From the human T2T-CHM13v2.0 reference genome, Homo sapiens, in assembly GCF_009914755.1 (NCBI RefSeq), contig NC_060939.1: 64,000 nt of DNA; one strand, given 5' to 3'. This document shows, one piece after another, positions 49,691 to 58,634 of this stretch (the first letter of the stretch is position 1; every line of letters begins with the position of its first letter). Under the pieces are notes generated by a model that searched no databases, was not told where the DNA came from, and saw nothing but the letters and a program-made list of their open reading frames with translations. Both the position numbers and the translations under genes were made by a program.

Positions 49691-50728
49691 TGAACCCCGG
49701 AAGAGGAGAGTCCCTCCACTCTTAAGACCTTGGATGAATGCAATTTGCCTGACAATAGGACTGCCTGTCCACAGATGGGTCTGGGAGGAAAGGAAAGATG
49801 CAGAAGTTAAAACATCACAGTGCTCTTCATCACGGCTTCAAGGGGTTAGGGGCTTGCTAGGAAGTGCCAGGTGATAAGTACTGGCCAAAGGGGAGCCAGG
49901 GCCATGAGCCTGGCATATCCCAGGCAATGTCCAAGCTAGGAGCATTGAGGAGTGGAACAGAGGAGATATAGGAGCCCTCCGGGAGAAGCAGGAATTACAA
50001 AGTGCTGCCCAACCAGTCAGACCAGCTGGGCCGGTTCCCCCTGAGTCCTGGCAGCCTTAACGGGCTCTTTAGAATAAAGCCAATGATTGAAAACACTTTG
50101 GCATCCCAGAGCTGTGCCTGGGCTGAGGAAGGAAATGGATACAGGTGGGTGAGGTGTCCATTTGGTAGGAATAACATCACAGGTGGGGTGTACACCCCCT
50201 GTGATATTGGGAGTAATATCATCCTCTCCCAACGTGGATATTGGGAACAATATCACAGGGGCCTGTACACTTCCTCGATATTGGTAGTAATACCATCCTC
50301 TCCCCCTTGCATATAAGAAACAGTATGTCAGGTGGGGTGGACCCCCCCCCGCCCCGCGATATGGGGAGTGATATCACCCCCCTCTCCCTCCCTGGATACT
50401 ATGATCCATGGTGGACACACAGCGTGTTTACGATATTGTGAGTAATATCATCTCCACCTCTGGAAATTGTGAACATTATCACAGACGGGTGTACACCCTC
50501 TCCAACATCACAAGTAATATCATCCTCTCCCCCCTGGGATATTAGAAACAATATCAGAGGAGTGTTTCTATCAGAGGAGTGTCTACCCCCTGGATATTAG
50601 GATCAATATCACAGGGTGGGTGTACACCTACTGCCATATTGAAAGTAATATCATGCTCTCCCTCCCCGGATATTAGGAACTATATCACAGGTGGGTGTAC
50701 ACCCACCATGGTATTAGGAGGAATATCA

Positions 50729-51038
50729 TTATTAATCACTAGTCATTTATTACCAATATTAATTTAAAAGAACATTAACATTAATATTAACTTCTAATAT
50801 TAATATGAACAAATAATTGTTAACATTACTATACTATTAATATTAATATTAATTATTAGCTAATAATGTTATTTTATACATATTTGTGTATATAGAAGAT
50901 CAGTATTATCAACATCAGTCATTATTATTAATAATTAATATTAATAAATTTTGTTATTAATATTACTGGTTAATTATAATTGTTATTGATTTTAATAATT
51001 ATATTAATTATTGATTATTAATAATAATTATTAATATT
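50729..51038. repeat. AT-rich core 1 between inverted satellite arms
   Basis: Strongly AT-rich; many ATTAAT/AATATT palindromes. Confidence 0.9.
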
Positions 51039-55208: not shown

Positions 55209-55844
55209 TTATTAATCACTAATCATTTATTATCAATAGTGATTACTAAGAACATTAACATTAATATTAATTTCTAAGATTAATATGAACAAATAATTGT
55301 TAGCATTATTAGACTACTAATATTAATAATAATTATTAGTAGCTAATAATGTTATTTTATACATATTTGTGTGTATATAAGATCAGTATTATTAACATCA
55401 GTCATTATTAATAATTAATATTAATAAATTTTGTTATTAATATTAATGGTTGATTTTAATCGTCATTATTATCGTTATTGTATATATAAGATCAGTATTA
55501 TTAACATCAGTCATTAATAATTAATATTAATAAATTTTGTTATTAATATAATGGTTAATTTTAATCATCATTATTCTCGTTATTGTATATAGAAGATCAC
55601 TATTATTAACATCAGTCATTATTAATTAATATTAATAAATTTTGTTATTAATATTAATAGTTAATTTTAATCATCATTCTCGTTATTGTATATAGAAGAT
55701 CAGTATTAACATCAGTCATTATTAATAATTAATATTAATAAATTTTGTTATTAATATTAATGGTTAATTTTAATCGTCATTATTATCGTTGTTGATTTTA
55801 TTAATTATATTAATTATCGATTGTTAATAATAATTATTAATATT
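55209..55844. repeat. AT-rich core 2, containing 4 tandem copies of an approximately 105-bp unit
   Basis: GATCA(G/C)TATTA anchors at 55381, 55490, 55595 and 55698. Confidence 0.92.
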
Positions 55845-58634
55845 ATTCCTGATATCCAGGGGGTCGAGGATGACATTGCTTCCTATACCTCAGAACACGT
55901 ACACCCCCATGTGATGTTGTTCCTAATAACCAGGGGGTAGAGGATGACGTTACTCCAAATATCGCCGTGGGTGTACATCCCTTCTGCGATCTTGTTGCTA
56001 ATACCCAGGCGGGGAGAAGACGATATTAATCCCAATATTGCAGAAGGTGTAGACCTCCCCTGATATTCAGGGGAAAGAGCACGATATTGCTCCCAATATC
56101 GCAGTCTGTGTACGCCCACTCTGTGATATTGTTCCCTATATCCGGGGAGGTGGAGAGAATGATACTACTCCCAGTTCTGCAGGCGGCATACTCCTGGCCT
56201 CTGATATTCTATTCTATCTCCAGCGGGGAGGAGAGGATGATACTACTACCAGTATTGAAGGAGGTGTTCACCACCCCTGTGATATTGTTCCTAATATCCA
56301 GTGGGGGAGACGATGATATTACTGGCCAAATCACAGGGGGTTTACACCCCCTCTGTTTTTCTTTTTTTTTTTTAATATCTAGGGGGCAAAGGGTGATATT
56401 ACTCCCAATATCCCCAATATCGCTGTGGGTGTACATCAACCCCGTGGTATTGTTCCGAATATCCAGGGAGGGAGAGGATATTACTGTCAATATCGCAATA
56501 GGTGGACACCCCTTCTTTTATATTGTTCCTCATATACAGCGGGGAGAGCATGATATTAATCCCAATATCGCTAGGGGTGCACACCCCTCTATGGTATTGT
56601 TCCCAATATTTTGCAAGGGATTTATGATATTACTGGCAATATAAGAGGGTGTGTACACCACCCATGTAATATTGGGGTTTTTTTGTCCAGCAATGAAGAA
56701 ACTGATATTACTCCCAAAATGGAACGGGCTGTACAACCCCCATGAGGCATTGTTCCTAACATCCAGGGGGCGAAGGATGATATTACTCCCAATGTTGCAG
56801 CGGGTGAATCATTCCCCTGTGAAATTGTTCCTAATATCTAGGAGGGGTGAGGATGATATTAATTTCAATATCGCAGGGAGTGTACACCGCCCCTATGATA
56901 TTGTTCTCAATATCCGTGGGAGTAGAAGATTATGTTACTCTCAATATCGCAGGTGGTGTGCACCCCACCCGTGATATTCTTTCTAATATCCAGGTGGGGG
57001 GAGGACGATATTACTCAGAATATCGCAAGTGATGCCCACCCCTTCTGTGATATTTTTCCTACTATTTCTGGCGGAAAGGATGATATTACTCCTAGTGTCA
57101 AAGGGAATGTACACGCTTTCTGTGATATTGATCCTAACATTTAGGGTAAAAGAGGATGATATTACACACAATATCGCAGGGGTGTGGTGTACGCTCCGCC
57201 TATAATATTATTTCTAATATGCAGGAAAAGAGAGAATACTATTTCTTCCAGTAGTGCAGGAGGTGTACACACCCTGTGATAATTTTTCTAATATCCAGAG
57301 AAGGAGACGATGACATTACTGGCCATATCGCACAAGGTGTGCACCCTTCTGTGACATTGTTCCTACTATTCAGTGGGAAGGAGGATAATTTTAATCCCAA
57401 TATCGCAGGGGATGTACAGTCCCCCTGTGTATAGTTTCTAATGTACAGGGAAAAGAGAATAATATTACTTCCAATATCGCAAAGCGTTTAAACACTCCTT
57501 GTATATTTTTCCTAATCTGCAGTGGGGTACAGGTTGATATTATTTTCAATGTCGCAGGGGGTGTCCATACCCCCTGTGATATTGTTCCTAATATCCAGCG
57601 GGAAACAGGCTGATATCACTCCCAATATCGCAGTGGCAGTACACCACCCATGTGATATTGTTCCTAATATCCACGCGGGGAGAGGATATTACAACATCAC
57701 AGGGGGTGTACACCCCTTCTGTGATATGCTTCCTGATATCCAAGGGGTGAGTGGATGATATTATTCCCAATAGCGTAGGAAGTGTACACCCATCCTGTGA
57801 TACTGTCTCTAACAACCACATGGGGAGAGGTGATATTATTCCCAATATTGCAGGAGTTGTTCACCCCGCCTATGATATTGTATTTTTTATATACAGTGGG
57901 GGAGAAAATGGCATTACTACCAATATTGAAGGGATGGACACCCCACAAGATATATTGTTCTTAATATCCGGGTTTAAAGAAGATGATATTACTCCCAATA
58001 TAACAGGGGTTGTACACCCACCTGTGATATTATTCGTCAAATCTAGAAAAAGAGAGAATGATATTACTTCCAATAGTACAGGGGATGTACACCCCCCCGT
58101 GATATTTTTTATAATATCTAAAAGAAGAGATGATGATATTACTCCCAATTCCACAAAAGGTGTACAACCCCCCGTGATATTGTTCCTAATAACTAGTGGA
58201 GGACAGCACGATATTACTTCCAATACCACAGTTTCTGTACACACCCCCTGTGATAGTGCTCCTAATTTCTAGGGGTTACACTGTCATATTACTCCCAATA
58301 TAGCAGTGGGTGTACACCCAACCTGTAATAATGCTCTGAATATTCAGGGAAACACAGGATGATATTACTCCTAATATCGCAGGGAGTGTACACCCCTTTT
58401 GTGATATTGTTCTTATAACCTCAGGAAAAGAAAACGATATTGTGTTCAATATCGCAGGCTGTGTACACCCACCCTGTGAAATTGTTCCTAATATACATGA
58501 GGGGAGAGGGTGATATACTCCTTATGTATAGCAAGAGGGTGGACACATAGCAAGAGGATGCGGGGAGTAATATCGCCCCCTTCTCCCCCGCTGGATATTA
58601 TGATCCACATCGCAGGGAGGCGGGCGATGAGAAT

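What the first reader, a model, noticed from the sequence alone, without database searches (positions are those of the whole stretch)
50166..58630. Foldback-like higher-order architecture: forward arm, AT core, reverse arm, repeated
Seen: monomer orientation is forward 50166-50728, AT core, reverse 51039-~53660, forward ~53670-55208, AT core, reverse 55845-~58550, then forward again. A distinctive variant (GGGGAGT(A/G)ATATC...CTGGATA(T/C)TA(C/T)GATCCA) marks unit starts at about 50362, 53680 and 58562; the third unit is cut by the NUMT after about 70 bp. The two units have reciprocal gaps: unit 1 lacks ~53890-55062 (joined at TCTACCCC) and unit 2 lacks ~51256-52103 (joined at ATATT). Inference: the real repeating entity is a multi-kb inverted-repeat module, reminiscent of foldback elements and PATRRs, not a simple tandem satellite.
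Basis: partly seen in the sequence, partly recalled or inferred. Interest (0 to 1): 0.7.

Follow-up and report, generated by a model that had tools for sequence, protein, structure and literature searches.

The report
Inherited inverted module of SATR1 satellite
This is a stretch of a known primate satellite repeat (SATR1) built from two copies of a multi-kilobase block that reverses direction at an AT-rich patch; the same block recurs at many other human sites and was likely inherited from one old array and scattered through DNA breaks and duplications rather than jumping as a transposon, so it is mostly ordinary.

Summary
Observation largely confirmed. 50166-58620 is a 76-bp satellite matching published SATR1 primers. 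It runs forward, AT core, reverse, turn, twice. The module is family-wide: 11 of 15 other human loci examined (picked with a reverse-arm query) show forward arm, AT core, reverse arm. Monomer order is conserved across chromosomes, and the forward arm stops at the same monomer position in 15 of 16 cores. It is a polar higher-order repeat, not a foldback transposon or PATRR: the arms are only 67-72% alike in every register, the longest perfect inverted match is 28 bp, ends vary, and there are no target-site duplications. A 2025 macaque preprint already describes a core unit of GC-rich SATR1v, inverted SATR1, AT-rich repeat and forward SATR1. Not found in my searches: the reverse-to-forward turn is a seamless flip through the monomer's own palindrome, and this array's left edge is the breakpoint of a 97%-identical local duplication. 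Corrections: the three 'unit starts' are not equivalent, and no satellite resumes beyond the NUMT.

The parts
50166..50728 (+). Unit 1 forward arm: 7 SATR1 monomers, starts mid-arm; V-type variant monomer at 50363-50476; internal deletion with small tandem duplication at 50553-50589
50729..51033 (.). AT core 1 (87% AT), head-to-head junction; local hairpins only
51034..53640 (-). Unit 1 reverse arm, 34 monomers; lacks the last ~13 monomers present in unit 2
53641..53680 (.). Turn 1 (reverse to forward), near the monomer's internal palindrome
53680..55207 (+). Unit 2 forward arm: V-type variant plus ~19 monomers
55208..55839 (.). AT core 2 (84% AT) with 105-bp x4 internal expansion at 55370-55794
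55840..58540 (-). Unit 2 reverse arm, 36 monomers; lacks the counterparts of 51256-52103 and 52309-52459
58508..58578 (.). Turn 2: imperfect hairpin centred on the monomer palindrome (z -2.3)
58560..58620 (+). One GC-rich G-type monomer (likely the SATR1v type); right end of the array
58635..60084 (-). Old NUMT (ND4, tRNAs, ND5 part) joined to the array end; the junction is found nowhere else among 60 matches
47287..50162 (+). Derived two-piece local duplication abutting the array's left edge: 47287-48335 = 60085-61681; 48335-50162 = G000:C15:37960187-37962343; both 97%
60085..61681 (+). Other copy of the first duplicated piece, directly after the NUMT

Best explanation
This is two tandem copies of a SATR1 satellite higher-order unit (GC-rich monomers, variant monomer, forward arm, AT core, reverse arm, turn) that is shared in the same monomer order by many human loci and was likely scattered as passive fragments of one old array, captured at DNA breaks and then spread by segmental duplication. 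Shown: identity as SATR1, the polar module, fixed core position, colinear monomers across chromosomes, no mirror symmetry, variable ends, no TSD, one insertion into an old L1 with filler DNA, and turns lying in register on the monomer's own ~36-bp palindrome. Inferred: the turn arose by template switching at that palindrome; the head-to-head junction was a single ancestral event whose AATATT-rich join expanded and now turns over fast; fragments (linear or circular) were end-joined into breaks, here next to a mitochondrial fragment; later local conversion or duplication homogenised the core-centred tract of the two units (91-95%), followed by microhomology deletions. No selected function is evident.
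For: Published SATR1 primers match 28 and 8 times against 0 in shuffles. Module at 11 of 15 other loci examined; tandem copies also at C13:92.29, C9:117.99 and C9:80.49. Position-specific monomers recur in order on chr5, 13 and 18; the first three reverse monomers are 70-92% alike in register against 62-73% off register. Forward arm ends at monomer phase 43-47 in 15 of 16 cores; 11 of 14 gap-free reverse-to-forward switches lie in palindrome register. No TSD or TIR: longest shared flank word averages 5.7 within a locus against 5.8 across loci. L034 splits an L1 whose two sides are contiguous, with ~50-65 bp fillers. The macaque core unit has the same layout. SATR marks duplicon insertion points.
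Against: 15 of 22 resolved array ends fall in G-type or V monomers (read by eye), which is non-random unless the source array had long G tracts (macaque does). Seven of the 11 in-register turns are copies of one event, so only about 3 are independent, and 9 further switches have gaps. No source array was found. No primate orthologues were available, so insertion order, ages and co-capture with the NUMT are untested. Only one empty-site-like junction (L034) was resolved. Homology to the macaque unit is by description only.
Confidence: 0.72

Rival explanations
1. The module is a decayed non-autonomous foldback DNA transposon whose long, internally repetitive TIRs are the two arms and whose middle domain is the AT core; SATR1 arrays grew out of it, as with Tetris in Drosophila.
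For: Arm-middle-arm layout dispersed over many chromosomes; ends enriched in one monomer type; precedent for foldback TIRs seeding satellites.
Against: No mirror register in 8 of 8 modules; ends at variable phases, no TSD or TIR above the cross-locus null; modules joined in polar tandem; filler DNA at L034; no transposase-length ORF, longest stop-to-stop frame 204 aa and repetitive.
Confidence: 0.07
2. The locus works like a PATRR: the inverted arms and AT core extrude a cruciform and act as a present-day breakage hotspot.
For: Both cores fold better than shuffles (z -3.9 and -5.2); arm-to-arm folds are more stable than single-orientation controls (-0.20 to -0.215 against -0.14 to -0.17 kcal/mol per nt); the array's left edge is a duplication breakpoint; SATR lies at an 8p23.1 duplication breakpoint and at one patient junction.
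Against: PATRRs are near-perfect palindromes over 90% AT. Here arms are ~70% alike, separated by 300-630 bp, the longest perfect inverted match is 28 bp with a 3.2 kb spacer, and only 1 of 144 perfect inverted repeats of 16 bp or more has a spacer under 100 bp.
Confidence: 0.1
3. The inversions arose independently and locally at each SATR locus, including this one, because the sequence is inversion-prone; the shared layout is convergence.
For: Cores of distant loci are poorly alike (57-67% to the window's); 3 head-to-head switches without a core at other phases; 4 of 15 loci lack the core.
Against: Same junction phase in 15 of 16 cores and same flanking monomers in order; cores still score above shuffles (z 3-10 between groups, 19-83 within).
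Confidence: 0.08

Closest known systems
SATR1 / SATR1v / SATR2 primate satellites; macaque SATR1-SATR1v core unit (bioRxiv 10.1101/2025.08.04.668424, section 7 read in full)
   Same: SATR1 monomer (primer match); unit of GC-rich variant array, SATR1 array, AT-rich repeat, opposite-strand SATR1 array, repeated in tandem; palindromic configuration noted by the authors.
   Different: Macaque arms are 589 and 191 bp followed by another repeat, in large subtelomeric arrays; here arms are 0.6-1.5 kb and 2.6-2.7 kb, two units, interstitial, ending at a NUMT. Sequence homology to the macaque unit not tested.
Xiao/DA core duplicon 'SATR-HERVE-SATR' (PMC2700803, PMC5088589; passages and, for the latter, supplement passages)
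   Same: Same forward arm and core start; unit 2's forward arm is sister to the chr11 plus Xiao-site clade among 35 rows (96/85); SATR at duplication breakpoints.
   Different: 20 of those 28 loci continue into non-SATR DNA after the core; this locus keeps a long reverse arm and its left flank has no interchromosomal paralogue beyond short interspersed-repeat hits.
Foldback transposons (FB, Galileo, Tetris; PMC4079207 passages)
   Same: Tandem repeats in opposite orientation around a non-coding middle.
   Different: No mirror TIRs, no fixed termini, no 8-10 bp TSD; polar tandem unit.
PATRRs (PMC7999016 passages)
   Same: A few hundred AT-rich bases with hairpin potential.
   Different: Not a near-perfect palindrome, 84-87% AT, arms ~70% alike.
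Dispersed euchromatic alpha-satellite repeats (PMC7719264 passages)
   Same: Satellite pieces inserted at unrelated sites, each with its own ends; passive spread proposed via extrachromosomal DNA.
   Different: Those are mostly single short repeats with 2-10 bp junction duplications; here multi-kb units with an inversion, and filler DNA at the one resolved site.

Membership tests
SATR1 satellite | Monomer matches the SATR1 consensus | tested here: met
   Primers designed on the consensus match 28 and 8 times with up to 2 mismatches, 4 exact; 0 in shuffles. The consensus itself was not available.
SATR1 satellite | Homologues at loci known to carry SATR1/2 | tested here: met
   Hits on chr8 at 6.8, 7.8 and 13.0 Mb, chr4, 11, 7, 3; SATR reported at 8p23.1 and 11q14. 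Mapping of coordinates to bands is from my own knowledge.
SATR1-SATR1v core unit (macaque) | GC-rich variant array, SATR1 arm, AT-rich repeat, opposite SATR1 arm, in tandem | tested here: met
   Layout met in the window and L032-L037 against the description.
SATR1-SATR1v core unit (macaque) | Sequence homology to SATR1v, rnd6, rnd155 | not testable with these tools
   No macaque genome or Dfam; preprint supplements closed.
Foldback transposon | Long TIRs that mirror each other | tested here: not met
   8 of 8 modules 67-72% in all registers, near-mirror residuals at most 0.02.
Foldback transposon | Fixed termini | tested here: not met
   22 resolved ends at varied monomers and phases; 15 of 22 in G or V monomers.
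Foldback transposon | Target-site duplication of 8-10 bp | tested here: not met
   0 of 12 loci share a word of 8 or more between flanks (2 of the 12 had an unresolved left end); mean 5.7 against 5.8 in 132 cross pairs. Age could have eroded TSDs.
Foldback transposon | A cognate transposase or autonomous partner | tested here: inconclusive
   No long ORF in the array; genome not searched for a partner.
PATRR | Near-perfect palindrome of several hundred bp, over 90% AT | tested here: not met
   Cores 84-87% AT; longest perfect stem in a core 18 bp; definition.
PATRR | Recurrent translocation breakpoints or cruciform extrusion | not testable with these tools
   No SV or cancer data available.

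The most novel reading that the evidence does not exclude
Human SATR1 loci are relics of one primate mobile unit: a 6-7 kb satellite module that folds back through its own monomer palindrome, is released preferentially at its GC-rich arrays, lands in DNA breaks (here beside mitochondrial DNA) and then nucleates duplications, seeding the Xiao/DA core duplicons and the macaque subtelomeric arrays.
Probability: 0.15. Interest if true: 0.7.

Novelty: new member of a known kind. Interest (0 to 1): 0.3.

Why it matters
SATR is annotated as a plain satellite, yet it marks core duplicons behind recurrent human rearrangements and dominates macaque subtelomeres. Showing that human loci share one ordered, polar unit gives a coordinate system for dating and tracing them, and a concrete candidate mechanism (flip at the monomer palindrome) for how a tandem array gains inversions. 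The locus itself shows no sign of function, and the layout is already in a 2025 preprint for macaque, so the gain is modest.

Tried and rejected
Mirror-register test of arms: negative in 8 of 8 modules. TSD and TIR search against a cross-locus null: negative. Satellite resuming after the NUMT: none. SATR-NUMT junction elsewhere in the genome: none among 60 matches. Arrival of the array inside an interchromosomal duplication: the left flank has only a local paralogue, which has no SATR after it. Coding or structured-RNA role: only repetitive ORFs up to 204 aa; Rfam finds only two NUMT tRNAs. The degenerate variant-motif pattern with 2 mismatches was near background genome-wide (127 against 101 control matches), so I used only its exact and one-mismatch rows as leads. 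A regex for turns caught too few cases and was replaced by a profile Viterbi. Literature searches for a human description of the module returned only the macaque preprint as describing it.

Full report
Observation. Tandem Repeats Finder reports 75-76 bp arrays at 50588-50729, 51034-53532, 53932-55207 and 56413-58521 with 66-79% matches. A strand-specific scan gives forward 50166-50728, AT, reverse 51034-~53640, forward ~53660-55207, AT, reverse 55840-~58540, a short forward piece, then nothing to 60500. Decomposition yields 97 monomers. The variant motif occurs three times only.

Corrections. The two units are 91-95% alike only in the tract 50582-53180 against 55062-57070; outside it they are 79-82% alike, like unrelated loci. 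Unit 1's variant block is closer to an internal second block of L033 and L036 (84-86%) than to unit 2's start (79%), so unit 1 begins mid-arm. The third 'start' is a GC-rich monomer of the type that forms arrays of several copies after the turn at other loci. No satellite follows the NUMT.

Identity. Primers designed on the SATR1 consensus (PMC3606032, supplement row seen; two of its files could not be searched) match the array 28 and 8 times, never in shuffles. The genome search gave 268 matches from 35 scored candidates, a lower bound, many at sites of the Xiao/DA duplicons described as flanked by SATR1/2 (passages read). I could not consult Dfam or Repbase, so assigning the G-type monomer to SATR1v is inference from the macaque description.

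Is the module general? Of 28 other loci fetched with a forward-arm-plus-core query, all 28 have the AT stretch at the arm end (selected by the query, so not independent); 8 of 28 go on into a reverse arm and 20 into other DNA. A fairer set came from a reverse-tail query: 150 of 168 matches were listed and fall in 17 other loci. I fetched junction DNA for 15 of them. Eleven show forward arm, AT core, reverse arm. Four do not in the DNA seen: C1:191.17, C4:173.14 and C5:99.73 switch strand without a core, and C7:100.82 shows one orientation over about 10 kb, right end not reached. Monomers are position-specific and colinear between chr15, 5, 13 and 18 (part of that output was cut). The forward arm stops at phase 43-47 in 15 of 16 cores. 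The unit is polar: G array, V, forward arm, core, reverse arm, turn, G array.

Foldback and PATRR tests. In 8 of 8 modules the arms are 67-72% alike in every register with no mirror diagonal, while in-register monomers between loci stand out. The longest perfect inverted match in the array is 28 bp, 3.2 kb apart. Cores have local hairpins above shuffles but are not the near-perfect, over 90% AT palindromes that define PATRRs (passages). Single-strand folds across a switch are more stable than single-orientation controls, so imperfect long hairpins are possible in ssDNA or RNA. Foldback elements have long TIRs and 8-10 bp TSDs (passages); here no locus shares a flank word of 8 or more, matching the cross-locus null. 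At L034 the module splits an old L1 whose two sides are contiguous on the window's own L1, with ~50-65 bp of unrelated filler on each side. Against my reading, 15 of 22 resolved ends lie in G or V monomers; long G arrays in the source, as in macaque, would explain this, but it is untested.

Mechanism. Each monomer holds a palindrome centred on GTAC. Of 23 reverse-to-forward switches, 14 are gap-free and 11 of these lie in palindrome register; seven are copies of one event, leaving about three independent ones. I infer a template switch at this hairpin. The head-to-head junction looks like one ancestral event; cores keep size and place but turn over fast (57-67% to the window's; above shuffles). 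Stand-alone loci differ by about 15-20%, roughly twice the depth of the Xiao-site clade; with Xiao's published span of 25 Myr this suggests dispersal very roughly 35-55 Myr ago (inference).

Local history. 47287-48335 is repeated at 60085-61681, and 48335-50162 is repeated 30 kb downstream, both at 97%. The downstream copy has no SATR after it. The upstream copy is a chimera that cuts an Alu, so it is likely the derived one, and it ends 3 bases from the array. The NUMT is 90% alike to its best nuclear relative and 76% to a chr5 NUMT that I recall as near-modern, so it is likely older than the duplication. The simplest order is array plus NUMT first, duplication later at the array's edge; a tandem duplication that captured both from a source now lost is not excluded.

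Prior knowledge. The macaque preprint 10.1101/2025.08.04.668424 (section 7 read whole; supplements closed and may hold more, including human comparisons) describes core units of GC-rich SATR1v, a 589-bp inverted SATR1 array, an AT-rich repeat and a 191-bp forward SATR1 array. Searches found no paper describing the ordered human module or the palindrome flip; the library lacks most subscription papers, and Costa 2006 and Ji and Zhao 2008 were seen only as references. Passages also read.

Verdict. Real feature, known family, layout already described in macaque; foldback and PATRR membership not met. Modest additions: conserved human unit, palindrome-register turns, breakpoint at the array edge. 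Interest 0.3.

Noticed in passing
window 47287-50162, 60085-61681; G000:C15:37960187-37962343 (L041, L031): Two-piece 97%-identical local duplication; the upstream chimeric copy ends 3 bases before the SATR array and the other copy begins right after the NUMT; the downstream paralogue has no SATR.
   Followed up: partly
window 58635-60084: Old NUMT (ND4, tRNAs, ND5 part), 90% to a NUMT at G000:C2:201695752-201697197; its junction with SATR is unique among the matches.
   Followed up: partly
window 60832-61466 against 48026-48116: 48-bp GC-rich VNTR with about 13 copies in one duplicate and 2 in the other.
   Followed up: no
window 55370-55794: 105-bp x4 AT-rich minisatellite inside core 2, 90% matches; candidate polymorphic VNTR.
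   Followed up: no
L042, L052 (C4:173.14, C7:100.83 Mb): SATR loci with a shorter, AT-richer monomer variant and no AT core in the DNA fetched; possibly another subfamily or a stage on the way to the core.
   Followed up: no
L034 (C18:27077800-27084300): Full module inserted in an old L1 with contiguous L1 sides and ~50-65 bp fillers, no TSD.
   Followed up: yes
L032 (C5:147762500-147771000): Module flanked on both sides by GC- and CpG-rich non-satellite sequence.
   Followed up: no
G000:C2:238012733-238013669: A 61-bp piece of an ND5-like NUMT is itself amplified as a tandem array of about 15 copies.
   Followed up: no
G000:C20:24057339-24057878: AT-rich stretch matching the core on both strands at about 70% without arm matches; not fetched.
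   Followed up: no
10.1101/2023.02.27.530095: ZNF141 is reported enriched over SATR1 repeats; binding at this locus not tested.
   Followed up: no
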